NCBI GenBank assembly: GCA_016871255.1
Contig: VFZH01000004.1
Span: 567-64,566 of the forward strand
DNA: 64,000 nucleotides
DNA from: Acidimicrobiia bacterium
GTDB lineage: Bacteria > Acidobacteriota > Vicinamibacteria > Vicinamibacterales > UBA2999
Reading direction: 5' to 3'
Shown piece after piece: positions 38,850-56,939 of this stretch; the first letter of the stretch is position 1, and each line of letters begins with the position of its first letter. The notes beneath the pieces were generated by a model. It saw nothing but the letters and a program-made list of their open reading frames with translations. It ran no database searches and had not been told where the DNA came from. The position numbers and the translations under genes were made by a program.

Positions 38850-40517
38850 ATGCTCCGAGCGCTGCGTATCCGGAATCTGGCGGTGATCGAAGCCGCGGAG
38901 CTGGCGTTCGCACCCGGTTTCAACGTCCTCACCGGTGAGACGGGCGCCGGCAAGTCGATCCTGATCGAGGCCGTGGGCCTGCTGCTCGGCGCGCGCGCAT
39001 CCGGCGACATGGTGCGTACCGGCGAGGCGGAAGCCGTGATCGAAGCCGAGTTCGACCCGCCCGCTGGAACCGGCCCGCTGGTGCTCCGTCGCGAGATCAC
39101 GGCGCAGGGCCGCAGCCGCTCCTTCATCGACGGCGAGGTGGCCACGGCAGCGGCCCTTCGCGATCTCTCGCACCAGCTCGTGGAGATTCACGGGCAGCAC
39201 GAGCACCAGCTGCTCCTGAACCCGGTGACGCATCTGCCGATGCTCGACTCACACGCGGGCCTGGCCGCCGAAGCGGAGGCCGTGGCCGAGGCATGGGCGG
39301 CGCTGCGCGCGCTGGAGACCGAGATCGAACGGGCCCGCATGGACGAGCGCGAGAAGGCCGCCCGGCTCGACCTCATCGCCTTCCAGCTCGGGGAGATCGA
39401 GCGCGCGCGCCCGCAGCCGGGCGAGGACGAGGAGCTGGCCGCCACACGCCGCGTGCTCGCCCGGGCCGATCAGCTCCAGCGCCTGTCGCAGCACGCCTAC
39501 GCTGCGCTGTACGAATCCGATCACTCGGCGCTCGCAAGCCTCGGCACCGTGTGGAAGCGGCTGGAGGAGCTCTCGTCGATCGACCCGCGCTCGGCCCCGT
39601 ACCTGGAGATGCGGGACGCCGTCCGCGGCCAGCTCGACGACCTCGCCCTCTTCCTGCGCGACTACGGACTGGGCATCGACGCGTCGCCCGAACGGCTGCA
39701 GCAGGTCGAAGACCGTCTGGCGCTGCTCGAGCGCCTCAAGAAGAAGTACGGCCCCACGCTGGCAGACGTCATCGCCCGCGGCGCACAGCTCGCCGACGAG
39801 CGGCGCCGCATCGAGACCGCCGGCGCTCGTGCCGCCGAGTTCGAGGCCGAACACCACGCGGCCCGGGAGCGCTTCCGCACGCAGGCGGCGGCGCTGTCGA
39901 CAGCACGGCGTGCGGCGGCACCGGCGTTCACGAGCCGGCTCGAGACGCTGCTTGCACGGCTCGCCATGACCGATGCCCGGGTCGAAGTGCGGTTCAACGC
40001 CAGCGACACGCCGGACACACCGTGGAGCGAGCGGGGGATCGACGAGGCCGAGTTCTACGTGTCGCCCAACATCGGCGAGGATCTCCGCCCGCTGGCGCGG
40101 GTCCTGTCCGGAGGCGAGCTCTCACGGGTCATGCTGGCCCTGAAGACGATCGCCGTGTCCGACCGGCCCGGCCGGACGCTGATCTTCGACGAAGTGGACG
40201 CCGGGATCGGGGGGCGGGTGGCCGGAGTGGTGGGGGAGCAGCTCCGGATGCTGGGGTCACGGTTCCAGGTGCTGTGCGTGACGCACCTCCCGCAGATTGC
40301 CGCCTGCGCAGCCACGCAGTTCCACATCGACAAGACCGTGCGCGGCGCCCGCACGGTCACGACGGTGACGCCGCTGGACGAGGCGACCCGGGTAAGCGAG
40401 ATCGCCCGTATGATCGGAGGCTACGCCATCACGGACGAAGTCACGGCCGGCGCGCGCGAACTGCTGCGCGCGAGCCAGGCCGTCGGCGGGACACCGCAAC
40501 GGCGAAAGCGAAAGTGA
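38850..40517 (+). CDS. recN: DNA repair protein RecN
   Basis: Walker A GETGAGKSIL, a long coiled-coil middle, C-terminal LSGGELSRVMLAL and LIFDEVDAGIGG. Confidence 0.94.
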   Translation: MLRALRIRNLAVIEAAELAFAPGFNVLTGETGAGKSILIEAVGLLLGARASGDMVRTGEAEAVIEAEFDPPAGTGPLVLRREITAQGRSRSFIDGEVATAAALRDLSHQLVEIHGQHEHQLLLNPVTHLPMLDSHAGLAAEAEAVAEAWAALRALETEIERARMDEREKAARLDLIAFQLGEIERARPQPGEDEELAATRRVLARADQLQRLSQHAYAALYESDHSALASLGTVWKRLEELSSIDPRSAPYLEMRDAVRGQLDDLALFLRDYGLGIDASPERLQQVEDRLALLERLKKKYGPTLADVIARGAQLADERRRIETAGARAAEFEAEHHAARERFRTQAAALSTARRAAAPAFTSRLETLLARLAMTDARVEVRFNASDTPDTPWSERGIDEAEFYVSPNIGEDLRPLARVLSGGELSRVMLALKTIAVSDRPGRTLIFDEVDAGIGGRVAGVVGEQLRMLGSRFQVLCVTHLPQIAACAATQFHIDKTVRGARTVTTVTPLDEATRVSEIARMIGGYAITDEVTAGARELLRASQAVGGTPQRRKRK

Positions 40518-40521: not shown

Positions 40522-41892
40522 TTGGCGAAAGCGAAAGCCGGACCTGGACACCCGAGAGCTCCCGTGGCCCCTCGCTACCTGATTGAAACCTTCGGCTGCC
40601 AGATGAACGTGCACGATTCCGAGCGGATGGCCGGTCTGCTCGAGCAGGCCGGCTACGAAGCCGCGCTCGACGAGCGTGACGCGGACGTCGTGGTCATCAA
40701 CACCTGCAGTGTCCGGGAACACGCCGAGGACAAGCTGTACACACGCCTCGGAGAGATCCGGGTGCTTGGCGAGGAAACCGGCCACACGCCCGTCGTCGCC
40801 GTGACGGGCTGTGTGGCGCAGCAGGAGGGGGAGGCGCTGCTCGGCGCCACCAACGGTCGCCTGATCGACGTCGTGCTGGGCACCCAGCAACTCCGCATGC
40901 TGCCCGATCTGGTCGCCCGGGCGACGTCGAACCCGTTCCCCGAAGTGCGGATCGATCCGCAGAACGACGTCAGCTTTCCGCTCGGGATCGCCAGGCGGTC
41001 GGACCCCGTCAAGGCCTACGTGACGATCATCGAGGGCTGCAACGACCATTGCGCCTTCTGCGTGGTGCCGTCGACGCGGGGAGCCGAGCGGATGCGCCGG
41101 AAGGGCGAGATTCTCGACGAGGTGCGCGAAGCGGTCGCCTCCGGCCGCCGGGAAATCCACCTGCTCGGCCAGATCGTGAACCACTACCGGGCACCGGACG
41201 ATCCCGGATGCGACTTCGCCCGGCTCCTGCACGAGGTCGACGCCGTTCCGGGCGTGGCGCGGATCCGGTTTGCGAGCCCGCATCCCCGGCACACCTCCCG
41301 GCCGCTCATCGAAGCGATCCGGGATCTGCCGCGGGTCTGCAAGCACCTGCATCTGCCCGTCCAGTCCGGCTCCTCACGGGTCCTCGCGGCGATGCGGCGG
41401 CGCCACACCCGTGACGACTACCTCCGCCTCGTGGACGACGTCCGCGAGGGTATCCCGAAGATCCAGCTCTCGACCGATATGATCGTCGGGTTCCCGGGCG
41501 AGACGGCGGCGGACTTCGAGGACACGCTGAGCCTGACCAGGCGGGTCGGTTTCCACAGCATGTTCTCGTTCAAGTACTCACCGCGGCCGAACACGCTGGC
41601 GGGGAAGCGGCTGACCGACGACGTGCCGGAGACGGAGAAGACGGCCCGGATCGTCGTCCTCCAGTCGCTGCAGCGAGAGGTGCAGACCGCGCTGCACGCG
41701 AGGGAGGTCGGCCGGGTGGTGGACGTGCTCGTGGATGCCGCCAGCCGGCGCCGGCGCTCCGACGTCTCGGGGCGCACGAGCGGGAACACCGTGGTCAACC
41801 TGCCGGGCGACCCCGGCTGGATCGGGCGGACCGTGCCCGTGCGCATCGAGCGCGCGGGCCCGAACAGCCTGTGGGGCGTGGCTGCCGGCTGA
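40522..41892 (+). CDS. miaB: tRNA-i6A37 methylthiotransferase MiaB
   Basis: UPF0004 N-domain (ETFGCQMNVHDSERM), radical-SAM cluster CNDHCAFCVVP and a C-terminal TRAM domain. Confidence 0.94.
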   Translation: MAKAKAGPGHPRAPVAPRYLIETFGCQMNVHDSERMAGLLEQAGYEAALDERDADVVVINTCSVREHAEDKLYTRLGEIRVLGEETGHTPVVAVTGCVAQQEGEALLGATNGRLIDVVLGTQQLRMLPDLVARATSNPFPEVRIDPQNDVSFPLGIARRSDPVKAYVTIIEGCNDHCAFCVVPSTRGAERMRRKGEILDEVREAVASGRREIHLLGQIVNHYRAPDDPGCDFARLLHEVDAVPGVARIRFASPHPRHTSRPLIEAIRDLPRVCKHLHLPVQSGSSRVLAAMRRRHTRDDYLRLVDDVREGIPKIQLSTDMIVGFPGETAADFEDTLSLTRRVGFHSMFSFKYSPRPNTLAGKRLTDDVPETEKTARIVVLQSLQREVQTALHAREVGRVVDVLVDAASRRRRSDVSGRTSGNTVVNLPGDPGWIGRTVPVRIERAGPNSLWGVAAG

Positions 41893-41920
41893 GGGGCCGG
41901 AGATCAGGGACGGGGCAGCG

Positions 41921-42406
41921 ATGCTGATCGAGATGACGATCAAGGGGCTGATGGTGGATCCAATCACCAACACGCCGATCGTCCTGTTGAAGGACGCGCA
42001 GGGCGACCGTGTCCTGCCCATCTGGGTGGGGATCTTCGAGGCGAACGCCATCGCGCTGCAGATCGAGAACATCGCGATGCCTCGACCGATGACGCACGAC
42101 CTGCTGCGGAACATCATCACCGACCTCGAAGGGAACGTCGACCGGATTGTCGTGTCGGACCTGAAGGACAACACCTTCTACGCCGTGATCCACCTGACGG
42201 TCCGTGGCGAGCGCCTGGCGGTGGACGCGCGCCCGAGCGACGCGATCGCGCTGGCGCTCCGGACCCGCGCGCCGATCCTGGTGGAGGAGGCCGTCATCGA
42301 CAACGCCAAGCCTGTGGACCTGGTGACCGACCGTACCGATCCCGATCGCCTGCAGAAATGGCTGGAGAGCCTCGACCCGGACGATCTCGGGAAGTACAAG
42401 ATGTGA
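41921..42406 (+). CDS. Bifunctional nuclease family protein (DUF151)
   Basis: 161 aa. VLLKDAQGDRVLPIWVGIFEANAIA...MPRPMTHDLL...ARPSDAIALALR is typical of the family. I chose the internal ATG of track ORF 41735. Confidence 0.85.
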   Translation: MLIEMTIKGLMVDPITNTPIVLLKDAQGDRVLPIWVGIFEANAIALQIENIAMPRPMTHDLLRNIITDLEGNVDRIVVSDLKDNTFYAVIHLTVRGERLAVDARPSDAIALALRTRAPILVEEAVIDNAKPVDLVTDRTDPDRLQKWLESLDPDDLGKYKM

Positions 42407-42424
42407 ATGTCGGCCGGCCGACAT
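42407..42424 (+). terminator. 18-bp perfect palindrome directly after the nuclease stop (hairpin, no U-tract)
   Basis: ATGTCGGCCGGCCGACAT can form a 7-bp stem with a CCGG loop. It is followed by TGG rather than a T-run, so terminator function is uncertain. Confidence 0.35.
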
Positions 42425-42499: not shown

Positions 42500-43270
42500 A
42501 TGATCGTCGCCATCGCCAACCAGAAGGGCGGGGTCGGCAAGACCACCACGGCGGTGAACCTTGCCGCTGCGCTGGCCATGCGAGGCCGGCCCACGCTGCT
42601 CATCGACCTCGACCCCCAGGCCAACAGCAGCCTCTCGTTCCTCGACCTGCGCGCGGTCGAGCGCAGTACGTACGACGCGATTGCCGACGCGCACACCACG
42701 CTCGACGACATCATCCTGCCGGCAGCGCTGGAGAACCTGTCGATCGCACCGGCCCGCATCGCGCTTGCCAAGCTCGAAGGACGCCTGGTGGGGGAGATCG
42801 ACGCGCATTACCGCCTGAAGGACAAGCTGCGGCCGCTCGTGAGCCGCTTCGCGCACGTCGTCATCGACTGCCCCCCGGCCCTCGGCCTGCTGACGCTCAA
42901 CGCCCTGGTCGCCGCAACGCACCTGCTCATCCCTATCCAGTCCTCCTACTTTGCCCTCGAAGGGACGGACGACCTCCTCGAGACGATCGAGAAGGTTCGC
43001 CAGCGGCCGAACCCGGCCCTCCAGATCCTCGGCGTCGTCATCACCATGCATGACAAGCGCACGGCGCTGGGGCGGGACATCCGGGAGCAGATCCAGAAGG
43101 TCTTCGGAGGCAAGGTCTTCAAGACCGTGATCAGCAAGAACGTCCGGCTGGAGGAGAGCCCGGCCTACAAGGAATCGATCTTCACGTACGCGCCCGACTC
43201 GGCGGGCGCCACCGACTACTACAGCCTGTGCGAGGAGGTGATCGAACGTGCCGAAGCGCGGACTGCCTGA
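42500..43270 (+). CDS. parA: ParA/Soj family chromosome partitioning ATPase
   Basis: Deviant Walker A NQKGGVGKTTT, with DLDPQ and IDCPP motifs. 256 aa. Confidence 0.93.
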   Translation: MIVAIANQKGGVGKTTTAVNLAAALAMRGRPTLLIDLDPQANSSLSFLDLRAVERSTYDAIADAHTTLDDIILPAALENLSIAPARIALAKLEGRLVGEIDAHYRLKDKLRPLVSRFAHVVIDCPPALGLLTLNALVAATHLLIPIQSSYFALEGTDDLLETIEKVRQRPNPALQILGVVITMHDKRTALGRDIREQIQKVFGGKVFKTVISKNVRLEESPAYKESIFTYAPDSAGATDYYSLCEEVIERAEARTA

Positions 43271-44084
43271 CACCCTGCGGATGCGGCATGACGAGCACTA
43301 CGTCGAGGCGCTGACCGGAGGGGCCGGTGCGCCCGTCGGCCGGGTGCTGCCGATCGACCAGCTCGATCCGAACCCCGACCAGCCGCGCCAGGTCATGGGC
43401 GATCTGTCGGAACTGATCGCCTCGGTGGTCGAAAAGGGGATCATCGAACCGCTGATCGTCCGCCGCCGTGAGGGGCGCTACCAGATCATCGCCGGCGAGC
43501 GGCGCTACCACGCGGCGGTTCAGGCCGGCCTCCGTGAGGTCCCCGTCGTCGAGCGCGACAGCGACGACGCCGAAGTGCTCGAAATCGCGCTCATCGAGAA
43601 CCTCCAGCGCAAGGACCTGACTGCCTTCGAGGAAGCCGAAGCCCTGGCCCAGTTGGCCGAGCGCTGCGGGTACACGCACGAGGAACTGGCCAGGCGGCTC
43701 GGCAAGTCGCGAACGGCCATCACCGAGGCCCTGTCGCTGAACGCCATGCCGGCTGATATCCGGAACCTCTGTCGGCTGGCCGACATCACCGCCCGATCCA
43801 CGCTGCTCCAGATCGTCCGCCAGGGTGATGCCCGCAGGATGCTGGCCCTGGTGGAACGGCTCACGGCGCAGGGGGGCGGGGCGACACGCCAGCAGGTCCG
43901 CCAGGAAACCGCGACCGAAAAGGCCGGGAAACGACCTCGCCCCTTCACCTTCAACTTCAAGCCCTCCAGCAAGTCGTTCGCGCTCCGGATGACGTTCCGG
44001 AAGGGGCGCGTGGCGCGATCGGAGATCATCGAGACCCTCGAGCAGATCCTCCGGGAACTGCGTGCCGCTCGAGATTCGGACTGA
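43248..44084 (+). CDS. parB: ParB/Spo0J family partition protein
   Basis: ParB box GERRYHAA, with IENLQRKDL and the HTH YTHEELARRLGKSRTAITEAL. GTG start overlaps the parA 3' end. The C-terminal third is atypical. Confidence 0.9.
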   Translation: MPKRGLPDTLRMRHDEHYVEALTGGAGAPVGRVLPIDQLDPNPDQPRQVMGDLSELIASVVEKGIIEPLIVRRREGRYQIIAGERRYHAAVQAGLREVPVVERDSDDAEVLEIALIENLQRKDLTAFEEAEALAQLAERCGYTHEELARRLGKSRTAITEALSLNAMPADIRNLCRLADITARSTLLQIVRQGDARRMLALVERLTAQGGGATRQQVRQETATEKAGKRPRPFTFNFKPSSKSFALRMTFRKGRVARSEIIETLEQILRELRAARDSD

Positions 44085-44169
44085 GGCCGGACCGACGAGA
44101 GGGGGACGACCGCCTCCCGCGGCGCCGTACGAGGGCAAGGCCGTTCCGGCGATTTCTCGTCCCTTCACA

Positions 44170-44197
44170 ACGTCGCATAATGTATGTTCTGTTAACT
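44170..44197 (+). other. dif-like XerC/XerD recombination site
   Basis: ACGTCGCATAA-TGTATG-TTCTGTTAACT, aligned with E. coli dif GGTGCGCATAA-TGTATA-TTATGTTAAAT, is identical at 21 of 28 positions, including an 11-nt run GCATAATGTAT and TGTTAA. It is intergenic and lies in a local AT-rich patch. Confidence 0.75.
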
Positions 44198-44273
44198 TAT
44201 CCCTCCAGCGGTGCCCGTGGCGGCCGCGACGCCCGGTCCCGCCCGCGCCATAATTGACTGCTCCGCCACGAGC

Positions 44274-46568
44274 ATGAAGACGACCCTCGACCGCTACGTC
44301 ATCCGCCAGACCCTCCTGCCGGCGTTCCTCGGCCTGCTGGTGTTCGCCTTCCTGCTCGTCGTTGACGTCCTGCTGCCAACCGCCGAAGAGCTCATCGCCA
44401 AGAACGTCCCGGCCGGCATCATCCTGACGCTGACCCTGACGCTGCTGCCGCAGGCCCTCGGCCTCGCCATCCCGATGGCGCTGCTTTTGGGGCTGCTCGT
44501 GGCCTTCGGCCGGCTGTCCACGGACCGCGAATGGGTGGCGCTCCAGGCCTGCGGCATCGGCCTGACCCGGCTCCTCTGGCCCGTCGCGTTGCTCTCGACC
44601 GTCGCGTTTGCCGCGACCTCGTACGTCCTCCTGGTCGCCCTGCCGAACGCCAACCAGAACTACCGCGAGATCATCTTCTCGATCCTGTCCACCCGGGCCG
44701 AGGGCGAGGTCAAGCCACGCGTCTTCTTCCAGGAGTTCCCCAACCTGGTGCTGTACGTCCGCGATCTGCCGCGGTCAGGTGGCTGGCAAGGCGTCTTCCT
44801 GGCCGACTCCCGACCCGGCCAGCCCCAGGCGATCTACGTCGCCCGGCAGGGCCGTGTCGTCATCAACCGGGACCTGCGCCGCGTCGAAATGGTCCTCGAG
44901 GACGGCGGCAGCCACATGCTGAGCGACGCCGGCTCGTATGAGATCTCGAGTTTCGACCGGACCATCCTCAGCGTGAATCCCGAAACGGTCTTCCCGCGCA
45001 TCGGACCCGGCAGGGGCGAACGCGAGATGGCGATTCCGGAGCTGCGGGAACGCATCGTGGAGCTGGAACGGCAGGGGCTCTCCACGGTCACCCCGCGGGT
45101 GGAGATTCACAAGAAGTTCGCGATCCCCTTCGCGTGCCTGGTCTTCGGGCTGATCGGCCTCTCGCTCGGCGCGAGCACCCGCCGTGAGGGCCGGCTGGCG
45201 AGCTTCGTCGTCGGCATCGTCGTGATCTTCACTTACTACGTCCTGCTGGAGTCTTCGTCGAACCTGGCGCGCGGCGGCTTCCTTCCGCCCTGGCTCGCGG
45301 TCTGGCTCCCCAATGTCGTCTTCGGCACGCTGGGGATCTGGCTGTTCGTCCGCCGGCTGCGCGCCATCGGCCGCTCCTCGCGCTGGGCAATCGGCCTGGC
45401 GGCGCTGCAGGCCCGGCTGCCCGGCCGCCCGGCCCGACCGGCGGCACCGACACTGCTGGGCACCCGTCTCACCTTCCCGCGGCTGCTCGACCGCTATGTC
45501 ATGCTGCTCTACGGGCGCATCTTCGCGATCGCCGGCGCTGCGCTCGTCGGGGTGTTCCACCTCTCGACGTTCATCGACCTGTCCGACGAGGTACTCCGCG
45601 GAGACGCGACCTGGTCCCAGCTCGGCGGGCACGTCTGGTTCGCCACCCCGCAGGCGCTCTACTACGTCCTTCCGATCTCCGTGCTCCTCGCCACGCTGAC
45701 CACGATCGGCATGCTCACGCGCCACAGCGAGCTGGTCGTCATGAAGGCGTGCGGCATGAGCCTGTACCGCGTGGCCGTGCCGCTCGTCCTGACCGCGGCC
45801 GTGGTGTCCGGCGTGCTGTGGCAGCTCCAGGAGCGGCTGCTGGGCCCGGCCAACTACCGCGCCGAAGGCCTGCGCCACGTGATCCGTGGCCGGTCGCCGG
45901 AAACCTTCGACGTGCTGAGCCGGCGCTGGGTGACCGGCACCGGAGGGGAGATCTACAACTACGACTTCTTCAACCCCCGGGAACGCGTACTCGGAGGCCT
46001 GTCGGTGTACCGCCTGTCCCCTGACATGTCGCAGGTGGAGGGACGGACGTTTGCCGAGCGCGCCTCCTTTGCGCCGGATGCTCCGGCCGCCACCACCGTG
46101 TGGCACGCAGAGCGCGGGTGGGCGCGCGACTTCTCGGGTCCCGGCGTGAGCTACGAGCCGTTCGACGCGATGGCGCTCGACCTCGAACCGGCGGACTACT
46201 TCTCGACGCAGGAACCGAACCCCGACTTCATGAGCTACGGCCAGCTGCGCGACTACATCGCCCGGCTCGACGCGGGGGGACTGGACGTCATCGAACAGCG
46301 CGTGGCGCTCGAGCGCAAGGTGGCGTTTCCCCTCGCCACGCTCATCATGACGCTGATCGGCGTCCCCTTCGCCGTCACCACCGGCAGCCGCGGCGCGATG
46401 TACGGCATCGGTGTCGGGATCGTGCTCGCGTTCCTCTACTGGGGGGCGATGAGCGTCTTCGCGGCGCTGGGGACGGCGGGCCTGATGGAGCCGGCGCTGG
46501 CAGCCTGGTCCCCGAACGCCCTGTTCGGCGCAGGCGCCGGCTATCTCGTCCTCACGGCCCGGACCTGA
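44274..46568 (+). CDS. Fused LptF-LptG LPS export permease (two YjgP/YjgQ modules in one ORF)
   Basis: 764 aa. The first module starts LDRYVIRQTLLPAFLG and the second starts LLDRYVMLLYGRIFAIAG at about residue 400. Each has TM helices flanking a periplasmic beta-jellyroll-sized insert. Confidence 0.85.
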   Translation: MKTTLDRYVIRQTLLPAFLGLLVFAFLLVVDVLLPTAEELIAKNVPAGIILTLTLTLLPQALGLAIPMALLLGLLVAFGRLSTDREWVALQACGIGLTRLLWPVALLSTVAFAATSYVLLVALPNANQNYREIIFSILSTRAEGEVKPRVFFQEFPNLVLYVRDLPRSGGWQGVFLADSRPGQPQAIYVARQGRVVINRDLRRVEMVLEDGGSHMLSDAGSYEISSFDRTILSVNPETVFPRIGPGRGEREMAIPELRERIVELERQGLSTVTPRVEIHKKFAIPFACLVFGLIGLSLGASTRREGRLASFVVGIVVIFTYYVLLESSSNLARGGFLPPWLAVWLPNVVFGTLGIWLFVRRLRAIGRSSRWAIGLAALQARLPGRPARPAAPTLLGTRLTFPRLLDRYVMLLYGRIFAIAGAALVGVFHLSTFIDLSDEVLRGDATWSQLGGHVWFATPQALYYVLPISVLLATLTTIGMLTRHSELVVMKACGMSLYRVAVPLVLTAAVVSGVLWQLQERLLGPANYRAEGLRHVIRGRSPETFDVLSRRWVTGTGGEIYNYDFFNPRERVLGGLSVYRLSPDMSQVEGRTFAERASFAPDAPAATTVWHAERGWARDFSGPGVSYEPFDAMALDLEPADYFSTQEPNPDFMSYGQLRDYIARLDAGGLDVIEQRVALERKVAFPLATLIMTLIGVPFAVTTGSRGAMYGIGVGIVLAFLYWGAMSVFAALGTAGLMEPALAAWSPNALFGAGAGYLVLTART

Positions 46569-48270
46569 CTTCCCCGCCCAGCCCTTCGATCCAGAACAGG
46601 CCGCTCGAACCGGAGGCGGTGTTGACGGTGTCCACGACGAACAGCAGGTCGCGCACCAGGTCGAGGGGCGGCAGCTGCTCGCTCGTGTCCTTGAAGGGCC
46701 GCAGGTCGTCCAGGTCGATCGACACGTCGCGGGTGACGTCGGCCACGTAGACCGATCGCTGCCAGCGCTCCCCCGTCTCGCTCGCGGGCACGCGGAGCTG
46801 CACCGACACGCGCATGGGGCGATCGGCGCCAATGCGGAACCGCAGGCGGGCGAACCCGGCCAGTCCGTCCGGCAGCGGAACGGCGGCCGCAGCGTAGGGG
46901 TGGCTGCTCTCCGCGCCTGAGATCGCGTACCGGATCTGCGCCTGCACGCCTCCCGACAGCCCCCGCCCTTCGTCCAGCGCCGCGTCCGAGCCCTCGCTGT
47001 GCTCGATCGCCCATTCCGCGATATCCGCCCCGAGGGGCGTGACGGCGCCGCTCTGTTCGGCGCTCGCCCTCGGCTCTGCCTGGCCGGATGGGTCCTCCCG
47101 GCCGACGTAGATCGGGTTCGACAACATCCACGGCACCGGCGGCTGCCCGGGCGCCCCAGGCAGCTCCACCTCGACCCGATAGACCGCCGGCACGGCCTCG
47201 ACAACACGGTCCAGCCAGGTGCCGGCAACCGGTTCGAGGCGCCGGCCATCCTGCACCAGAACGATGCGGGCCGTCGAAGGCGCGTGGATGCGTACCTGCA
47301 GCCGCACGGGTCCGTCGATCGGCAGCGCATCGCCGGCTGCGGCGGTGAGGTTGCCGCTCGACGCCTCGAACCGCAGGGCCCCCGGCGTGGCCGCGGCGTC
47401 GATGACCGAGTACACGCGGCCGGCCGTGAGCGCGCCGAGGACGGCGGCGCTGTCGGCGGCGGCGTCGCCGGACAGCACCGTCCCCTGCAGTCCGATCGAG
47501 AACGCGCGGAAGACCGCCTCGTAGCCGGGGACGCGCAGCGCGAGCGCATCGGTGCGCGACGCCTGTGCCCCCTCCCCCACCAGCCGCAGGCGGGCGTGCG
47601 CGTCGCTTCCTGCCACCGCCACGATCCGGCGGGCTGCGGTCAGCGCGTCCCACCGCGCCAGCGTGGCATCCGGCCGGTCGAGCACACGCCCCAGGGACTC
47701 CGGTGATCGGAGCAGGTACGTCAACGCCAGGCGGGCGATCTGGCTGCGGGGCTCGTCCCGCCATTCGCTGTCCCCGTTCAGCCACTCGAGCGCGTCGATC
47801 GGCTGGTCCCACGCGCTCCATCGGAGCGAGCGTCTCGCCGAATCCGGATGGGCGGCCACGGCGAATCCACCGAGGCGGTGCACGTCCTCGACGACGTCGC
47901 GCCCGTCGCCACCGAGCCGGTACGGCGCCTCACCGAGGCCGAGCGCGACCAGGTGGCCCTGGTTGGTGCTGATCTCGACGGCGTCGATGACCAGCGCGCC
48001 GGACCGGTAGGCCGGCGGCTCGGGCGGTCGCGTGCCGTCGCCATGGTCGGTGACCACGACGAACTGGAGTCCGGCCCGCGCGGCGGCTTCCGCCACGTCG
48101 TCGATGGAGCCACCGCCGTCGGAACGGTCCGTGTGCACGTGAAACACGCCGTGCACGGGGCTCCCGAGCGGCGGCGGCACCGAGCCGAGCTGCCGCGCCG
48201 GCGGCGGCAGGAGCGACCAGACACCGGTGAGGCCGGCCAGCAGTGCGATCCCGAGGAGGCGCCGGGTCAT
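46552..48270 (-). CDS. PHP-domain metallohydrolase (CehA/McbA-like) with a large uncharacterised C-terminal region
   Basis: Signal-like N-terminus; PHP motifs HVHTDRSDGGGS and VVVTDHGD. The remaining roughly 400 aa have no motif I recognise. Confidence 0.75.
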   Translation of the reverse strand: MTRRLLGIALLAGLTGVWSLLPPPARQLGSVPPPLGSPVHGVFHVHTDRSDGGGSIDDVAEAAARAGLQFVVVTDHGDGTRPPEPPAYRSGALVIDAVEISTNQGHLVALGLGEAPYRLGGDGRDVVEDVHRLGGFAVAAHPDSARRSLRWSAWDQPIDALEWLNGDSEWRDEPRSQIARLALTYLLRSPESLGRVLDRPDATLARWDALTAARRIVAVAGSDAHARLRLVGEGAQASRTDALALRVPGYEAVFRAFSIGLQGTVLSGDAAADSAAVLGALTAGRVYSVIDAAATPGALRFEASSGNLTAAAGDALPIDGPVRLQVRIHAPSTARIVLVQDGRRLEPVAGTWLDRVVEAVPAVYRVEVELPGAPGQPPVPWMLSNPIYVGREDPSGQAEPRASAEQSGAVTPLGADIAEWAIEHSEGSDAALDEGRGLSGGVQAQIRYAISGAESSHPYAAAAVPLPDGLAGFARLRFRIGADRPMRVSVQLRVPASETGERWQRSVYVADVTRDVSIDLDDLRPFKDTSEQLPPLDLVRDLLFVVDTVNTASGSSGLFWIEGLGGEVRSGP

Positions 48271-48274: not shown

Positions 48275-49198
48275 TCATGATCTCGGATGAAAGCGATCGT
48301 AGACGGCCCGCAGGCGATGTTCGAGCACGTGCGTGTAGATCTGCGTGGTGGAGAGGTTGGCGTGGCCGAGCATCATCTGGATAGCCCGCAGATCCGCGCC
48401 CCGCTCCAGCAGGTGCGTGGCGAACGAGTGGCGGAGCACGTGTGGACTGAGGGGAGACGAGATGCCCGCGCCCCGTCCGTACGCTTTCAGGATCTTCCAG
48501 AATCCCACGCGCGTGAGACCTGCGCCGCCCCGGGCATTGACGAAGAGCCGGGGACTCGTCCGCCGCACCAGCAGCGCCGGCCGGCCGTCGCGCGCGTAGC
48601 GCTCGACCCACCGGCCTGCTTCATCACCGATCGGCACGATGCGCTGTTTCGACCCCTTTCCCGTGCACGTGAGGAACGACGACTCGAGGTTGACGTCCGC
48701 CGGGCGCAGCGACACCAGCTCTGACACGCGCATCCCTGTGGCGTACAGGAGCTCGATCAGCGCGCGGTCGCGCAGGCCGCGCGGCGTGGACACGTCCGGC
48801 TGCTCGATGATCCGATCCACTTCCTCCACGGAGAGGAAGCGCGGCAGCGTCTGCCACGCGCGCGGCGGCCGGAGGTCGTCGGCCGGACTGGCCGCGATCC
48901 GTCCCTCGCGCAGCAGGAAGCGATAGAAGCCGCGGAAGCAGGCCACCGCCCTCGCCACCGATCGCGGCGAGCGCCCCGCGGCCATCAGATCGCGAACCAG
49001 GGACTCGAGGTCAGGCCGGGCCAGTTCCACGAGCGGTGTCGTACGCCCCGCGGCGAAGCGCGCCAGCAGCGTCATGTCCCGCCCGTAGCTCTCGACCGAG
49101 CTGACGGCGAGCCGCCGCTCGACCGTCAGATGTGTCAGGTAGGCGTCCACGTCGTGCCACGGCGTTCCGTCTCGTCGGGACTCTCCAGTAGGAGCCAC
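48275..49198 (-). CDS. xerD: Site-specific tyrosine recombinase XerD
   Basis: 307 aa with catalytic motifs ATGMRVSEL, SPHVLRHSFATHLLERGADLRAIQMMLGHANLSTTQIYTH, and a C-terminus ending HPRS, as in XerD. Confidence 0.92.
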   Translation of the reverse strand: MAPTGESRRDGTPWHDVDAYLTHLTVERRLAVSSVESYGRDMTLLARFAAGRTTPLVELARPDLESLVRDLMAAGRSPRSVARAVACFRGFYRFLLREGRIAASPADDLRPPRAWQTLPRFLSVEEVDRIIEQPDVSTPRGLRDRALIELLYATGMRVSELVSLRPADVNLESSFLTCTGKGSKQRIVPIGDEAGRWVERYARDGRPALLVRRTSPRLFVNARGGAGLTRVGFWKILKAYGRGAGISSPLSPHVLRHSFATHLLERGADLRAIQMMLGHANLSTTQIYTHVLEHRLRAVYDRFHPRS

Positions 49199-49236: not shown

Positions 49237-50187
49237 ATGCCGCGCCGCCGCTCCAGGTTCGAATCGCTCCCCACCGAAGCCATCAATCCCGCGACGCTGG
49301 CGATCGACAAGCTGTCCGCCGACGAGATCGTGGACCTGATGATCGCGGAAGACCGCCGCATGCTCGCCGCGGTGCAGAAGGAACGAGCGCGCATCGCGAG
49401 CGGCGTGGACCTGGTGGTGACTGCGCTGCGCAAGGGTGGACGGATCCTCTTCGTCGGCGCCGGCACGAGCGGGCGGCTGGGCATCCTCGAGTCGGCGGAG
49501 ATGCCGCCGACGTTCAGCACCGACCCCAGCCTGGTGCAGGCCATCCTGGCCGGCGGGCGCGAAGCGATGCTCGGCACCAAGGAAGGGATCGAGGATCACT
49601 TCGAGGACGGCGCGCGCGCGATGGCCCGCCTCGCGCCGACGCGGAAGGACATCATCATCGGCGTCTCGGCGAGCGGGATGACCCAATACGTCCGTGGCGC
49701 CATGACCGCGTCCCGCAAGGCCGGAGCCCGCATCATCTTCGTCACCTGCGATCCTGCGGCCGAGATGGAGACGTTCGTGGACCTGATGATCGCGCCGGCA
49801 GTCGGGCCGGAAGTCATCGCCGGCTCCACCCGGCTCAAGGCGGGCACCGCCACCAAGCTCGTGCTGAACATGCTGACCACGGCGGCCATGGTGCGCACAG
49901 GCAAGACCTACGGGAACCTGATGGTGGACGTGCAGCCGACCTCCGAGAAGCTGCAGGAGCGCGCCCGCCGGATCGTCAGCATCGCCACCGCCCTGTCGCA
50001 CGACGAGGCCGACAGGCTGCTGCGGAAGGCGCACTGGAACGTCAAGGCCGCCATCGTGATGCACAAGGCCGCGCTTTCCTACACCAAGGCGCTGGCGCGC
50101 CTCCGCAGGGCACACGGCTCGATGCGGGAAGCCGTCGGCGAAGACATCGAGGGACGCCTCCGCGAGGTCCTCGACGATCACCACTGA
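49237..50187 (+). CDS. murQ: N-acetylmuramic acid 6-phosphate etherase
   Basis: SIS domain with FVGAGTSGRLG and ISASG-like VSASGMT. 316 aa. Confidence 0.93.
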   Translation: MPRRRSRFESLPTEAINPATLAIDKLSADEIVDLMIAEDRRMLAAVQKERARIASGVDLVVTALRKGGRILFVGAGTSGRLGILESAEMPPTFSTDPSLVQAILAGGREAMLGTKEGIEDHFEDGARAMARLAPTRKDIIIGVSASGMTQYVRGAMTASRKAGARIIFVTCDPAAEMETFVDLMIAPAVGPEVIAGSTRLKAGTATKLVLNMLTTAAMVRTGKTYGNLMVDVQPTSEKLQERARRIVSIATALSHDEADRLLRKAHWNVKAAIVMHKAALSYTKALARLRRAHGSMREAVGEDIEGRLREVLDDHH

Positions 50188-50206: not shown

Positions 50207-51259
50207 ATGTCGTTCGACGCCCCGCGGCGGGTGATAGCGGAGGCCGTGGCCGCCCGCGCCTGTCCCGCCGCGGTCGTGGACGTGGGCGACGCCACCCGCC
50301 CGCTCTGGCGCGAGGCGTTCGGGAGGCTGACGTTCGAGGTCGATGCGCCCGCCGCGACGCCAGACACGATCTTCGATCTCGCCTCCCTGACCAAGGTGCT
50401 CGCCACCACGCCCATCGTGATGCAGATGGCCGAGCGCGGCACGCTCTCGCTCGACGATCGCGTCGACGGCCTCGTGCCCGGCTGGCGTGGCACCGATCGC
50501 GCGGAGGTGACGATTGAAGACCTGCTGGCACACTGCTCGGGGCTGCCTGCGTGGCGTCCCTTCTACGAATCGTGCGTGGGGCGGGAAGCGTTCGAACAGG
50601 CGATCGTCGACCTGCCGCTCGAATACGCGCCGCGCAGCCGCTCCGAGTACAGCGATCCCGGCTTCATGCTCCTCGCGTTCATCGTCGAAGACGCCGGTGG
50701 CATCAGGCTCGACGACCGCTTCCAGACCCTGCTCGCGCAGATGGGCGTGGTGGACCGGATGCAGTTCACGCCCCCCTCGCGCTGGCGGCCCGACGTCGCA
50801 CCCACGGAATACGATCCCTGGCGCGGGCGGCTGCTGGTCGGCGAAGTCCACGACGAGAACGCGGCGGCCCTCGGCGGAGTGGCCGGGCATGCGGGGCTGT
50901 TCGGGACGGCGGGCGCCGTGGCCGCCTGCGCCCGCCATCTGCTCCAGATCGCGGGCGGCCGGACGGGCGCCTTCCAACCCTCCACGCTGGCCCACTTCAC
51001 CAGCCGGCGCACCGGCGTCCCCGGCAGCTCCCGGGCCCTCGGCTGGGACACCATGCTGCCGACGTCGTCGTGCGGGACCCGCATGTCGCCGCGCGCGTTC
51101 GGACATACCGGGTTCACCGGCACGTCGCTCTGGATCGATCCCGACCGCGGGATCTACGCCGTGCTCCTGACCAACCGGGTCCATCCCACCCGCGCGAACG
51201 ACCTGATCCGGGCCGTGCGGCCGGCGTTTCACGACGCGGTGATGGACGCCCTCACGTGA
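50207..51259 (+). CDS. Serine hydrolase (beta-lactamase/transpeptidase-like family)
   Basis: S-x-x-K motif in LASLTKVLATTP and a C-terminal HTGFTGTS motif. It directly follows murQ, so a peptidoglycan-recycling context is plausible. Confidence 0.85.
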   Translation: MSFDAPRRVIAEAVAARACPAAVVDVGDATRPLWREAFGRLTFEVDAPAATPDTIFDLASLTKVLATTPIVMQMAERGTLSLDDRVDGLVPGWRGTDRAEVTIEDLLAHCSGLPAWRPFYESCVGREAFEQAIVDLPLEYAPRSRSEYSDPGFMLLAFIVEDAGGIRLDDRFQTLLAQMGVVDRMQFTPPSRWRPDVAPTEYDPWRGRLLVGEVHDENAAALGGVAGHAGLFGTAGAVAACARHLLQIAGGRTGAFQPSTLAHFTSRRTGVPGSSRALGWDTMLPTSSCGTRMSPRAFGHTGFTGTSLWIDPDRGIYAVLLTNRVHPTRANDLIRAVRPAFHDAVMDALT

Positions 51260-54512: not shown

Positions 54513-56939
54513 TCACCGGACGGTCACCACCGCCGGCACGAAGGTCAGCGGCGCCACGGTACCATCCGGCAGCGTCGCCGAACCGGTCATGGTGAAGTTG
54601 CCGAACCCTGGGGCCGCCGCATCGAACAGAATCGCCGACAGCAGTCCGGAGCCGGAGGCCCCCGCGGCATCGCCCGTTCGCACGATCGCGATGTCGATCC
54701 GGCCGACGACCGGATCGACCTGCTGCGTGAACTGGACGTTGGTCCCGCCCTGACGCATGAAGCTTCCCTCCTGGATGCTTCGCACGCGCAGGACCGACGG
54801 GTCGAACGTGAGCGTGATCGACACCATCGACAGCCGAGACGCGTTCGACACGGAGATCGGCACGGTATACGGTCCACCGCCGACCTGCAGTTCGTTCGCC
54901 GGAGCCGTCAGCAGGATCTGCGCCGGCGGCACGGGCTGTCGCTGGGCCGAGGGAACCGGCGTGCCCCCTCCGGCCGGCTGCGTCGTACCCGGCACGGTGT
55001 TGCTGCCGGGAGGAATGACCGGTTGTGCCGCCGGAGCGCCGGTCTGGGGCGCGACGGCCGGCGGCGGAGGCAGTGCGTCGGTTGCCGGCGGCGTACCTGG
55101 AGGCTGCGGCGTTGCCGTCCCCTGCGGGTCGGGCAAACCGCCCGGCCCGATCGTCGGGGGCGGGCCACCCAGCGCCAGGTTCTGCTGCGAACCGATGTAG
55201 ATGGGCGCCACGTCGTCCTGCGTCAGCTCGTGCGTCCGCACGAGCCGTGGCGTCAGCAGCATCACGATGTCGGTCTGCTCGACCCTATCAGAGGTATTCC
55301 CGAACAAGTTACGAATAATCGGCAATCGCAAGAGCCCTGGGAAACCCTTGGCGGACGTGCGTTCTCTCTCTTGGAGCAACCCTGCTAGCAAGTTCGACTC
55401 GCCGTTGCGTAGTCGGAGCCTGGTGTTCACCTTCCGGGTGAAGAACGAGGGCAGGGTCTGGGGATTGTCGGTACTTCCGATGACAACACCAGGCCCTAGG
55501 GAGCTACTCTCCACCGATAGCTCAAGGATGATCTCGTCCTCGAAAGTGACGCGCGGGGTCATCTCCACCACCACGCCGACGGTCCGGTACGTGAACGATG
55601 TCAGCGGATTCACGTTCACGCCGCCCTGGGCGAACGGCGTGAACACGGTCGAGGGAACCGGGACCTCGTCGCCCAGGTTGAGCGTGATCAGCTGGCCCTC
55701 CTGACCGCGCAGCTGGGGCTTGGCTATCAGCTTCGTCTGGTCATCGTTCTCCAGAAAACTGACAATGGCTGACGGAATCGCCAAGTAGAAATCGCCTGTG
55801 TTGACACCGCGTGTAATCGTGTTCAGGTTGAACGTATCAGTCGCATCTTCCGCTGCCGGGTTGCGTTCCGGTGAGAACACACCTCGTACCGCGTAGCTAC
55901 TGAGGTCCAGGCCGAACTGCTTGGCACGGCTCCGGTTCACCTCGAGGATCTGCACGTCCACGACGACCTCGGCGCGCGGGTTGTCGTTCTGCTCGATCAG
56001 CTTCTCGACGATCTCGACCACGTTGGCCGAGGCGCCGACGGTGATCGTGTTGGCCGCCTTGTTCGGCACGATCCGCGGCGGCACGGCCATGCTCGGCAGC
56101 CGGATCACCTGCACCAGCAGCTGCGCCAGCTCGGTGGCGTCGGCGTGGGAGATGAAGAACGTCTGGATGACCTGCTCCTCGTACTGCGCCCGCTTCTGGT
56201 TGGTGTCCGGAACGACGAGAATCGTGCGGTCGTTGACGACCTTGTAGAAGTACTGGTTGACGGTCAGGATCTGGTTCAGCGCGTCGTTCAGCGTGACGTC
56301 GTCCAGCTCGACCGTGTAGCTGCGATCCTGGAAGTCGCGATCGTAGGTGACGTTGATGTTGGTGGCGTCACCGATGAAGTTGAGGATGTCGCGGACGCTG
56401 GTGTTGACGAAACGGATCGTCGGCAGCGTCGACTCGAGGTTCAACAGCGGCTGGGGCCCCTCCTGCCGCGCCCGCTCCCGGAGCTGGTCGATCGTCGGCT
56501 TCGGGAGCTCGGCTTCGAGCTGCTCCCGGATCCGGCGCTCCAGCTCGCGCACCTTGTCGGCGATCGATCGGCTGACCGGATCGAACTCGTTCGCCCGCCG
56601 GTACTCGCGCAGCGCCTCGTCGAGCTGGCCGCGCGCTTCGAACACGCGCGCCTGATCGAGGTGACGGCCCGCGGCGTTGATCATCGCGCGTTCGAGCGCG
56701 ATGCGGTACTCCGCCCGGTTCGGTTCCTTCTGGACGGCCTCCCGGAAGTGCAGGACGGCCGCATCCCAGTCGCCGTTCCGTCCGGCCTGGTCGCCGCGTC
56801 CGTACGCGCGGCTCGCGCCGCATCCCGCCGCGAGCACGGCGGCAATCAGGAGAGACGCCAGCGCGGTCGCACGTCGCCCCTGCTGGCCGGGCCTGTCGCG
56901 TCTGGACACTCGGCTCGTCATGCTGATGGGTGTGGTCAC
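54513..56939 (-). CDS. Secretin (GspD/PilQ family) with a lipobox plus TPR-like N-terminus and a C-terminal cohesin-like domain
   Basis: 808 aa. N-terminus has VLAAGCG followed by TPR-like helices. N0/N1-like repeats (VRDILNFIGDATNINV..., TELAQLLVQV...). Secretin core (TRLRLRNGESNLLAGLL...GFPGLLRLPIIRNLFG). A Pro-rich linker. The C-terminal ~130 aa (PYTVPISVSNASRLSMVSITLTFDPSVLRV...GLLSAILFDAAA) resemble cohesin modules. Confidence 0.9.
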   Translation of the reverse strand: MTTPISMTSRVSRRDRPGQQGRRATALASLLIAAVLAAGCGASRAYGRGDQAGRNGDWDAAVLHFREAVQKEPNRAEYRIALERAMINAAGRHLDQARVFEARGQLDEALREYRRANEFDPVSRSIADKVRELERRIREQLEAELPKPTIDQLRERARQEGPQPLLNLESTLPTIRFVNTSVRDILNFIGDATNINVTYDRDFQDRSYTVELDDVTLNDALNQILTVNQYFYKVVNDRTILVVPDTNQKRAQYEEQVIQTFFISHADATELAQLLVQVIRLPSMAVPPRIVPNKAANTITVGASANVVEIVEKLIEQNDNPRAEVVVDVQILEVNRSRAKQFGLDLSSYAVRGVFSPERNPAAEDATDTFNLNTITRGVNTGDFYLAIPSAIVSFLENDDQTKLIAKPQLRGQEGQLITLNLGDEVPVPSTVFTPFAQGGVNVNPLTSFTYRTVGVVVEMTPRVTFEDEIILELSVESSSLGPGVVIGSTDNPQTLPSFFTRKVNTRLRLRNGESNLLAGLLQERERTSAKGFPGLLRLPIIRNLFGNTSDRVEQTDIVMLLTPRLVRTHELTQDDVAPIYIGSQQNLALGGPPPTIGPGGLPDPQGTATPQPPGTPPATDALPPPPAVAPQTGAPAAQPVIPPGSNTVPGTTQPAGGGTPVPSAQRQPVPPAQILLTAPANELQVGGGPYTVPISVSNASRLSMVSITLTFDPSVLRVRSIQEGSFMRQGGTNVQFTQQVDPVVGRIDIAIVRTGDAAGASGSGLLSAILFDAAAPGFGNFTMTGSATLPDGTVAPLTFVPAVVTVR

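What the first reader, a model, noticed from the sequence alone, without database searches (positions are those of the whole stretch)
44170..44197. dif-like XerC/XerD chromosome dimer resolution site in the parB-lptFG intergenic region
The 28-mer ACGTCGCATAA TGTATG TTCTGTTAACT has the canonical 11-6-11 dif architecture. It matches E. coli dif (GGTGCGCATAA TGTATA TTATGTTAAAT) at 21/28 positions, including nearly the whole inner parts of both arms. It lies in non-coding DNA in a short AT-rich patch. No ORF-based annotation would report it.
Basis: partly seen in the sequence, partly recalled or inferred. Interest (0 to 1): 0.7.

Follow-up and report, generated by a model that had tools for sequence, protein, structure and literature searches.

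The report
Chromosome dimer-resolution (dif) site beside parAB
The 28-base sequence is very probably the real site where this soil bacterium untangles joined sister chromosomes, an ordinary kind of element, but here it sits unusually right beside the chromosome-partition genes parA and parB.

Summary
The 28-mer ACGTCGCATAA-TGTATG-TTCTGTTAACT is at window 44170-44197, in the non-coding gap between parB and a fused lptF-lptG gene. It matches E. coli dif at 21/28 positions and is unique in the window.

The dif reading is supported. The window comes from a Vicinamibacterales (Acidobacteriota) MAG.
- **Conservation.** In 80 related genomes, nearly every locus that covers the DNA after parB has one such site. 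The two 11-base arms are conserved and the central 6 bases vary freely.
- **Recombinase.** An intact xerD lies 4 kb away in conserved synteny.
- **Polarity.** The E. coli FtsK-guiding motif GGGNAGGG points toward the site 114:25, and a de novo motif, RGGGGAG, 294:23. The switch falls within ±100 bp of the site and does not depend on gene strand.
- **Precedent.** Kono et al. 2011 predicted very similar dif sites in three Acidobacteria.

It is therefore a new member of a known kind.

Two caveats apply. The window's XerD arm reads TTCTG where all 58 relatives read TTATG. Genome-wide uniqueness and the position of oriC could not be tested.

The context is unexpected. The site always directly follows a parAB operon whose ParB has an altered recognition helix. 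That operon carries its own palindrome, TGTCGGC-NN-GCCGACA. The arrangement is also found in Aminicenantes.

The parts
44170..44180 (+). Left arm, ACGTCGCATAA. Inferred XerC-binding half-site.
   Evidence: Read. It matches the E. coli XerC arm GGTGCGCATAA at 7/11. Positions 3-5 and 8-11 are invariant or nearly invariant in 58 relatives. A distant subclade has GRGTCYGATAA instead, as in the predicted Ellin345 dif. The assignment to XerC rests on analogy with E. coli.
44181..44186 (+). Central region, TGTATG, where the strands are exchanged.
   Evidence: Read. Relatives carry 26 different hexamers at this place; only the last G (56/58) and the second A (51/58) are common.
44187..44197 (+). Right arm, TTCTGTTAACT. 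Inferred XerD-binding half-site, with an unusual C at 44189.
   Evidence: Read. It matches the E. coli XerD arm TTATGTTAAAT at 9/11. Relatives read TTATGTTAACT. The third base is A in 58/58 relatives and in 116/120 metagenome matches to a pattern that left this base free.
44150..44169 (+). Flank on the XerC side that is conserved together with the site (short T-tracts and CA before the arm). Role unknown.
   Evidence: With all sites turned to the same dif orientation, information content rises at -18/-17, at -8 to -5 and at -1/0. It also rises at +29/+30, but is near zero from +33 onward. The flank turns with the site where the site is inverted. In the window the first T-tract is shifted by 2 nt.
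48275..49198 (-). xerD, tyrosine recombinase.
   Evidence: It has the Pfam domains Phage_int_SAM_1 and Phage_integrase. On the NCBIfam XerD equivalog TIGR02225 it scores 347.5 bits against a cutoff of 329.6. It aligns to E. coli XerD (1A0P) at E = 6e-67, with the GxRxSE, GKGxK, HxLRH and LGH...Y motifs kept. It occupies the same position in 68 of 80 related loci. It is the only tyrosine recombinase in the window.
43248..44084 (+). parB (ParB/Spo0J family, atypical recognition helix). Its stop codon is 86 bp before the site.
   Evidence: It has the Pfam domains ParB_N and HTH_ParB and matches TIGR00180. The helix reads GKSRTAITEALSL where Thermus and Caulobacter ParB read GK(A/S)RS.VAN..RLL. 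The site follows parB in all relatives. The start codon is uncertain: this exact product is not on record.
42500..43270 (+). parA (Soj-type ATPase).
   Evidence: Pfam AAA_31, CbiA and MipZ.
42408..42423 (.). Perfect 16-bp palindrome TGTCGGCCGGCCGACA upstream of parA. Inferred variant parS or ParB operator.
   Evidence: In relatives, all 116 copies with at most 1 mismatch in 1.4 Mb lie in or around parAB. Aminicenantes loci have the same palindrome upstream of parA, even at 35% G+C.
43770..43785 (.). Second copy of the palindrome, TGTCGGCTGGCCGACA, inside parB and 385 bp before the site.
   Evidence: The same position inside parB holds a copy in 54 related loci.
44274..46568 (+). Fused lptF-lptG gene, the right-hand neighbour of the site.
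   Evidence: Two LptF_LptG domains in Pfam; TIGR04407 and TIGR04408 both above their cutoffs. It is identical to P0001.

Best explanation
This is the chromosomal dif site of a Vicinamibacterales bacterium (Acidobacteriota).

Inferred by homology with E. coli: XerC binds the left arm (ACGTCGCATAA) and XerD binds the right arm (TTCTGTTAACT). When sister chromosomes have become a dimer, FtsK at the division septum pumps DNA in the direction set by oriented G-rich motifs (GGGNAGGG / RGGGGAG) until it reaches this site. It then activates XerD. The two recombinases exchange strands across the 6-bp centre and resolve the dimer.

Shown here: the sequence and its architecture; its conservation pattern; its fixed syntenic place; the neighbouring intact xerD; and the convergence of oriented motifs on the site.

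Inferred: which recombinase binds which arm, the dependence on FtsK, and activity of this particular copy despite its A-to-C change in the XerD arm.
For: - **Sequence.** The match is exact and unique, and the site is the only high-scoring position in the window.
- **Relatives.** The 80 loci fetched with the LptFG protein are all Vicinamibacterales or Acidobacteriota MAGs. The gene order recN-miaB-nuclease-parA-parB-[site]-(GH57)-lptFG-PHP-xerD-murQ-bla is kept. 58 loci have a site with at least 18/22 arm matches and 10 more have a weaker one. The other 12 either end before the DNA after parB (11) or have a damaged left arm (L033).
- **Conservation pattern.** The arms are nearly invariant and the centre takes 26 different hexamers, as expected for a Xer site.
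- **XerD.** It is present, above the equivalog cutoff and catalytically intact.
- **Polarity, fixed in advance.** E. coli KOPS GGGNAGGG points toward the site 114 times and away 25 times. 46 loci point toward, 3 away and 3 are tied.
- **Polarity, de novo.** RGGGGAG points toward the site 294 times and away 23 times.
- **Switch point.** The best switch point is offset 0 ±100 bp.
- **Independence from gene strand.** The + strand genes to the right of the site carry the motifs on the - strand: lptFG 5:25, murQ 0:7, bla 2:14. In Aminicenantes, - strand genes to the left carry them on the + strand.
- **Window alone.** The best switch point falls at 42-46.5 kb for three of four motif sets; for GGGNAGGG (n = 15) the optimum is a flat 38-61 kb plateau that also includes the site.
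- **Precedent.** Published predicted acidobacterial dif sites are close. Ellin345 has ATGTCCGATAACAGATATTATGTTAACT, which is 20/28 to this site with 10/11 in the right arm (supplement of PMC3025954).
- **Genomic setting.** The context is core chromosome: rpoN, hpf, hprK, ptsI, tol-pal and recN. There is no dnaA gene and no DnaA-box cluster nearby.
- **Metagenome scan.** About 70 of 120 hits were of the Vicinamibacterales type. Every one of them was next to parB or lptFG and none was in another context.
Against: - The third base of the XerD arm is C (TTCTG), where 58/58 relatives and 116/120 metagenome matches have A. This copy might therefore bind XerD less well. TTCTG does occur in 3 other metagenome sites and in the predicted A. 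capsulatum dif.
- No xerC or ftsK is in the window.
- Uniqueness in the whole genome and the position relative to oriC are untested, because the source contig is only 66 kb.
- GC skew is weak. The cumulative maximum in the window is at about 25 kb, with only a local maximum at about 41 kb. Per-gene third-position skew is only roughly consistent with a switch at the site.
- parAB genes are normally near the origin, so a terminus site next to them is unexpected.
- Counts of oriented motifs over homologous loci are not fully independent.
Confidence: 0.9

Rival explanations
1. It is the dif locus, but this particular copy is weakened or inactive because of the A-to-C change in the inner part of the XerD arm. 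The change could be a real mutation or an error in the MAG assembly.
For: Position 20 is A in 58/58 relatives and in 116/120 metagenome matches to a pattern that left this base free. The inner TTATG is common to the dif and plasmid Xer sites I know of (my own knowledge).
Against: xerD next to the site is intact. TTCTG is also seen in three independent metagenome sites (L102, L186, L198) and in the published predicted dif of Acidobacterium capsulatum. No second candidate exists in the 64 kb window.
Confidence: 0.06
2. The site is a binding site (centromere or operator) for the adjacent ParB rather than for Xer recombinases.
For: It lies within 25-400 bp of the parB stop in two classes of Acidobacteriota, whatever gene lies beyond it. 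No canonical parS is nearby.
Against: - The arms match Xer half-sites, not a ParB palindrome.
- The outer arms are asymmetric.
- Another, perfect palindrome (TGTCGGC-NN-GCCGACA) is the obvious ParB target in the same locus.
- About 50 metagenome sites with the same arms in other taxa have no parB nearby.
- Oriented motifs converge on the site.
Confidence: 0.02
3. It is the attachment or resolution site of a mobile element: an element that integrates by Xer recombination, or a plasmid-type par-plus-resolution cassette that entered the chromosome.
For: The order palindrome-parA-parB-recombination site looks like a plasmid maintenance cassette. dif-like sites do occur on IMG/VR viral contigs.
Against: There is only one site per locus and no duplicated site flanking an insert. 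The flanking genes are core housekeeping genes in conserved order across an order of bacteria, including 5-7 Mb chromosomes. Chromosome-scale motif polarity converges on the site. None of the viral hits shares the context.
Confidence: 0.02

Closest known systems
E. coli dif with XerC, XerD and FtsK/KOPS
   Same: A 28-bp, 11-6-11 site with 21/28 identical bases. The inner CATAA/TTATG is palindromic and the outer arms differ. A XerD orthologue is present. GGGNAGGG motifs point at the site from both sides.
   Different: The outer XerC arm is ACGT instead of GGTG. The XerD arm reads TTCTG...AACT. The site directly follows parAB and lies 4 kb from xerD. A further ~20 bp on the XerC side is conserved. 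No Tus/Ter system or FtsK could be examined.
Predicted dif sites of Acidobacteria (Kono et al. 2011, PMC3025954, supplementary table)
   Same: Ellin345 ATGTCCGATAACAGATATTATGTTAACT and S. usitatus ACTTCCGATAACGAATATTATGTCAACT share the right arm and the ATAA core. The distant Vicinamibacterales subclade (GRGTCYGATAA) matches them even better. A. capsulatum also has TTCTG.
   Different: Those are from other classes (Acidobacteriia, Solibacteres) and were found by HMM and skew in complete genomes. The Vicinamibacterales left arm is TCGCATAA, not TCYGATAA. Whether parB is adjacent in those genomes was not checked.
Plasmid multimer resolution sites cer and psi
   Same: The same XerC/XerD core. The extra conserved DNA is on the XerC side, and the site sits next to partition genes.
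   Different: cer and psi need about 180 bp of accessory sequence bound by PepA, ArgR or ArcA and do not depend on FtsK (my own knowledge). Here the extension is only about 20 bp, the context is chromosomal, and KOPS-type polarity points to the site.
Single-recombinase systems with the gene next to the site (XerS/difSL, XerH/difH, archaeal XerA/dif)
   Same: The recombinase gene is kept close to the site.
   Different: The recombinase here is a XerD equivalog (the XerS model scores 96 bits against a cutoff of 267, and the XerA model 207 against 220). The two arms are clearly different, which argues for two recombinases. The gene is 4 kb away, not adjacent.

Membership tests
dif (XerC/XerD chromosome dimer resolution site) | 28 bp: two 11-bp half-sites in inverted orientation around a 6-bp centre, with a shared inner part and different outer parts | tested here: met
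   ACGTCGCATAA / TGTATG / TTCTGTTAACT. The inner CATAA pairs with TTATG in relatives (TTCTG in the window).
dif (XerC/XerD chromosome dimer resolution site) | Sequence similarity to experimentally defined or previously predicted dif sites | tested here: met
   21/28 to E. coli dif (hand count). 20/28 to B. subtilis dif (hand count against the sequence recalled from memory). 20/28 to the predicted Ellin345 dif, with 10/11 in the right arm.
dif (XerC/XerD chromosome dimer resolution site) | Arms conserved and central region free to vary among related genomes, at a homologous place | tested here: met
   58 sites, 45 distinct 28-mers and 26 different spacers, always after parB.
dif (XerC/XerD chromosome dimer resolution site) | One copy per chromosome | tested here: inconclusive
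   There is one copy in the 64-kb window and one per 22-kb related locus. All Vicinamibacterales-type metagenome hits share the same context.
dif (XerC/XerD chromosome dimer resolution site) | Lies where FtsK-orienting (KOPS-type) motifs converge | tested here: met
   GGGNAGGG 114:25, RGGGGAG 294:23, switch at 0 ±100 bp, independent of gene strand. The signal in the window alone is weaker but consistent.
dif (XerC/XerD chromosome dimer resolution site) | Lies at the GC-skew shift point, roughly opposite oriC | tested here: inconclusive
   Window skew is positive on the left and negative on the right, but the cumulative maximum is at about 25 kb with a local one at about 41 kb. Per-gene GC3 skew fits only roughly. 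The position of oriC is unknown. No dnaA or DnaA-box cluster is nearby.
dif (XerC/XerD chromosome dimer resolution site) | Cognate XerD with catalytic R-K-H-R-H-Y | tested here: met
dif (XerC/XerD chromosome dimer resolution site) | Cognate XerC, and FtsK with a gamma domain, in the same genome | not testable with these tools
   Neither gene is in the window (for recombinases). The rest of the MAG is not available.
dif (XerC/XerD chromosome dimer resolution site) | Recombination at the site resolves chromosome dimers | not testable with these tools
   This needs experiments.
parS (ParB centromere) | 16-bp palindrome TGTTNCACGTGAAACA bound by ParB | tested here: not met
   The 28-mer is not such a palindrome. 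No canonical parS with up to 3 mismatches occurs in the window, and none with up to 2 mismatches in 1.4 Mb of related loci.

The most novel reading that the evidence does not exclude
In at least two classes of Acidobacteriota (Vicinamibacteria and Aminicenantia), dif is part of a fixed module: [TGTCGGC-NN-GCCGACA palindrome]-parA-parB-dif.

The ParB of this module has a changed DNA-recognition helix, and canonical parS is absent. The palindromes would then be a variant parS. A ParB clamp loaded there, 0.4 and 1.8 kb from dif, would spread over dif.

That would place a ParABS-type partition complex at the point where FtsK-guiding motifs converge (the terminus), not at the origin. It would suggest that ParAB acts on the terminus or on dimer resolution in these bacteria.
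Probability: 0.3. Interest if true: 0.75.

Novelty: new member of a known kind. Interest (0 to 1): 0.45.

Why it matters
By itself the site is a routine but useful annotation. It marks the segregation terminus of an uncultured soil lineage and gives a consensus, ACGTCGCATAA-N6-TTATGTTAACT, that finds dif in Vicinamibacterales assemblies. That is handy for orienting MAG contigs and for growth-rate estimates from coverage.

The context matters more. If the partition genes and their likely binding sites really sit at dif rather than at the origin, these abundant soil bacteria organise chromosome segregation differently from all model species. The question can be tested directly by ParB ChIP-seq and marker-frequency analysis in cultured relatives such as Vicinamibacter or Luteitalea.

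Tried and rejected
- **ParB look-up.** A look-up of the contig that encodes the exact ParB product found nothing, probably because the annotated start codon differs. The source was identified through LptFG instead.
- **Gene-by-gene GC3 skew.** The signal was only weak and gene-dependent, so I did not rely on it.
- **Canonical parS.** None in the window or in the related loci.
- **dnaA.** No hit in any fetched DNA.
- **DnaA boxes.** One match, which is no more than chance.
- **Promoter and terminator scan of the intergenic gap.** Nothing found.
- **Locating oriC on the complete chromosomes** (OZ252293.1, OY969603.1 and others).
- **Viral-contig scan with a looser pattern.** 120 dif-like sites were found, none in this context, and I did not pursue them.
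- **Mechanism of site inversion.** Comparing close pairs with opposite orientation showed only that the flanking genes stay colinear and the non-coding flanks do not align. No mechanism emerged.
- **Literature.** Searches for the palindrome and for a natural parS next to dif found nothing.
- **Rejected readings.** I considered and rejected a chance AT-rich patch, the lptFG promoter and a plasmid origin. The site is kept in both orientations and before different downstream genes, on 5-7 Mb chromosomes.

Full report
**1. The observation**

The 28-mer ACGTCGCATAATGTATGTTCTGTTAACT is at 44170-44197 on the + strand. By hand count it matches E. coli dif at 21/28: 7/11 in the left arm, 5/6 in the centre and 9/11 in the right arm.

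It is the only match in the window at up to 3 mismatches, to itself or to the E. coli 24-base core. There were none in 100 shuffles.

The window is 70% G+C and the 28-mer is 36%.

A third-codon-position GC filter, Pfam and NCBIfam give these genes around the site:

| Gene | Coordinates | Strand |
|---|---|---|
| recN | 38850-40517 | + |
| MiaB-like methylthiotransferase | 40522-41892 | + |
| bifunctional nuclease | 41735-42406 | + |
| parA | 42500-43270 | + |
| parB | 43248-44084 | + |
| **the site** | 44170-44197 | + |
| fused lptF-lptG | 44274-46568 | + |
| PHP/CehA-type hydrolase | 46552-48270 | - |
| xerD | 48275-49198 | - |
| murQ-like | 49237-50187 | + |
| beta-lactamase-fold protein | 50207-51259 | + |

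The site is therefore non-coding, 86 bp after parB and 77 bp before lptFG.

**2. Where the window comes from**

LptFG is identical to a protein on a 66,464-bp contig of an NCBI MAG labelled 'Acidimicrobiia bacterium'. All relatives, at about 63% identity and below, are Vicinamibacterales or Acidobacteriota.

The rest of the window is core chromosome: lptB, rpoN, hpf, hprK, rapZ, ptsI, tolQRAB with a TPR (CpoB-like) gene, and a type II secretion/type IV pilus cluster.

**3. Conservation**

A scan of one genome per species with an LptFG alignment returned 80 loci, all from this lineage. They include 5.35-, 5.42-, 5.97- and 7.04-Mb records.

The gene order recN-miaB-nuclease-parA-parB-[site]-lptFG-PHP-xerD-murQ-bla is kept.
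- 58 loci have a 28-mer with at least 18/22 arm matches to ACGTCGCATAA...TTATGTTAACT.
- 10 more have a weaker version, with the left arm GRGTCYGATAA.
- The remaining 12 either end before the DNA after parB (11) or, in L033, have a truncated parB and a damaged left arm.
- The arms are nearly invariant, while the central six bases take 26 different forms.
- There is one site per locus.

In many relatives a GH57 glycoside hydrolase gene on the - strand lies between the site and lptFG, so the site sits between convergent genes.

**4. Recombinase**

The 307-aa protein at 48275-49198 passes the XerD equivalog cutoff (347.5 bits against 329.6). It does not pass the XerC, XerS or XerA cutoffs.

It aligns over its full length with E. 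coli XerD. The active-site arginines, lysine, histidines and tyrosine are in place.

It is the only tyrosine recombinase in the window, so xerC must be elsewhere in the genome.

**5. Polarity of oriented motifs**

This was the strongest test I could run of whether the place is the right one for dif.

*A motif fixed in advance.* E. coli KOPS is GGGNAGGG (role and consensus as in PMC3384302).
- In the related loci it points toward the site 114 times and away 25 times.
- 46 loci point toward, 3 away and 3 are tied.

*A motif found without prior choice.* A search for strand-biased 7-mers gave RGGGGAG, at 294 toward and 23 away. That motif was chosen using the site as pivot, so I then moved the assumed pivot. 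Both motifs peak at offset 0 ±100 bp and fall off steadily on either side.

*The bias is not a gene-strand effect.*
- The + strand genes to the right of the site carry the motifs on the - strand: lptFG 5:25, murQ 0:7, bla 2:14.
- In Aminicenantes, - strand genes to the left carry them on the + strand.

*The window alone.* Counts are small: GGGNAGGG is 9:3 on the left and 1:2 on the right, and RGGGGAG is 10:5 and 3:9. The best pivot lies at 42-46.5 kb for three of four motif sets. For GGGNAGGG the optimum is a flat plateau from 38 to 61 kb that includes the site.

*Caveat.* Homologous loci are not independent samples.

*GC skew.* It has the sign expected for a terminus but is weak and noisy. 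This fits the low skew indices that Kono et al. list for Acidobacteria.

No dnaA homologue and no DnaA-box cluster is near the site.

**6. Comparison with what is known**

Kono et al. 2011 predicted dif in three Acidobacteria. Their supplementary table gives:

| Genome | Predicted dif |
|---|---|
| Ellin345 | ATGTCCGATAACAGATATTATGTTAACT |
| S. usitatus | ACTTCCGATAACGAATATTATGTCAACT |
| A. capsulatum | ACGTCTGATAATGAATATTCTGCATTTC |

The window's site is of this kind, so it is a new member of a known kind.

The mechanism I propose is carried over from E. coli as established knowledge and was not tested here. XerC binds the left arm and XerD the right arm. FtsK is guided by the oriented motifs and activates XerD.

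**7. A caveat on this copy**

The third base of the right arm is C (TTCTG). All 58 relatives have A, as do 116 of 120 metagenome matches to a pattern that left this base free.

Three metagenome sites and the predicted A. capsulatum dif also have C, so the change may be tolerated. It could also be an assembly error or a weakened site.

**8. Unexpected context**

*The site always follows parB.* In the metagenome scan, about 70 of the 120 hits were of the Vicinamibacterales type, and all of them were next to parB or lptFG. About 50 hits came from other taxa and had no parB.

*The same arrangement occurs in a second class.*
- Two low-GC hits (L166 and L181, 35% G+C) also had parA-parB-[site], followed in L166 (the contig long enough to show it) by rho, lon and tig instead of lptFG.
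- Their ParB is 42% identical to the window's over its full length and belongs to Aminicenantes.
- Three further Aminicenantes contigs, fetched through their ParB, have a dif-like site 25-170 bp after parB, with yet other downstream genes. The oriented motifs converge there too: summed over L321, L323, L324 and L166, RGGGGAG is 18:1 on the left and 1:14 on the right.

*This ParB is not a textbook one.*
- Its recognition helix reads GKSRTAITEALSL, where Thermus and Caulobacter ParB read GK(A/S)RS.VAN..RLL.
- No canonical parS occurs in the window or in 1.4 Mb of related loci.

*A different palindrome takes its place.*
- A 16-bp palindrome, TGTCGGC-NN-GCCGACA, occurs 116 times in those loci.
- All copies lie in or around parAB: upstream of parA, at one fixed place inside parB, or just after parB. 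None lies elsewhere.
- The window has a perfect copy at 42408-42423 and a one-mismatch copy at 43770-43785.
- Aminicenantes have it upstream of parA even at 35% G+C.
- I found no paper that mentions the palindrome or a natural parS next to dif.

I read the palindrome as a variant parS or a ParB operator. This is an inference.

If ParB loads there and spreads, dif lies inside the ParB complex, at the point where FtsK-guiding motifs converge. That would be an unusual chromosome layout. I cannot exclude that further palindromes and the real centromere lie near oriC.

**9. Other details**

- The site occurs in both orientations relative to parB and lptFG (22 +, 36 -). This includes close pairs whose flanking genes are colinear.
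- About 20 bp on the XerC side (short T-tracts and CA) and 2 bp on the XerD side are conserved and turn with the site.

**10. Verdict**

The element itself is ordinary. Its tight and ancient linkage to an atypical parAB module is the part worth following up.

Noticed in passing
window 42408-42423 and 43770-43785; L001-L080 within 3.3 kb left of the site; L166, L181, L321, L323, L324: A 16-bp palindrome TGTCGGC-NN-GCCGACA occurs 1-3 times per locus. It is found only in or around parAB: upstream of parA, at one fixed place inside parB, or just after parB. It is also present in Aminicenantes at 35% G+C. It is likely a variant parS or a ParB operator. I found no paper that mentions it.
   Followed up: partly
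window 43248-44084 (parB): The ParB recognition helix reads GKSRTAITEALSL instead of the canonical GK(A/S)RS.VAN..RLL. The C-terminal part (PFTFNFKPSS...LRMTF.K) is shared with Aminicenantes ParB. No canonical parS lies within the window or in 1.4 Mb of related loci.
   Followed up: partly
window 44189: This base is C, where all 58 relatives have A (TTCTG against TTATG in the XerD arm). It could be a real variant, a weakened site or an assembly error.
   Followed up: partly
L001-L080, site positions listed: The dif site is found in both orientations relative to parB and lptFG (22 +, 36 -). It flips even between close relatives (L012 vs L016, L023 vs L027) while the flanking genes stay colinear. 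The mechanism is unknown.
   Followed up: partly
window 44150-44169 and 44198-44199: Conservation extends about 20 bp beyond the XerC arm (two short T-tracts about 10 bp apart, then CA) and 2 bp beyond the XerD arm, and it moves with the site when the site is inverted. This could be a bend or a binding site for an accessory factor.
   Followed up: no
L014 7780-9978, L020 7670-9871 and many other loci: In many relatives a 732-aa GH57 glycoside hydrolase gene on the - strand lies between the site and lptFG. It is absent at this place in the window.
   Followed up: partly
window 44274-46568: LptF and LptG are fused into one 764-aa protein. The fusion is conserved throughout the Vicinamibacterales relatives, which are 744-808 aa long. 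As far as I know, LptF and LptG are usually two separate proteins.
   Followed up: no
whole window (source contig): The source MAG is labelled 'Acidimicrobiia bacterium' at NCBI, and some relatives are labelled 'uncultured Bifidobacteriaceae' or 'Gemmatimonadaceae'. Gene content (Lpt, Tol-Pal) and all close relatives point to Vicinamibacterales, so these labels look wrong.
   Followed up: no
L033 7790-7910: One relative has a truncated parB 3' end and a site with the spacer and right arm intact but a destroyed left arm (GCCGCAAACAA TAGATG TTATGTTAACT). It may be a deletion or an assembly artefact.
   Followed up: no
None has the parB/lptFG context.
   Followed up: no
window 54513-56939: A secretin of the type II secretion/type IV pilus cluster carries N-terminal TPR repeats and a C-terminal cohesin domain. 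I had not seen this combination before.
   Followed up: no
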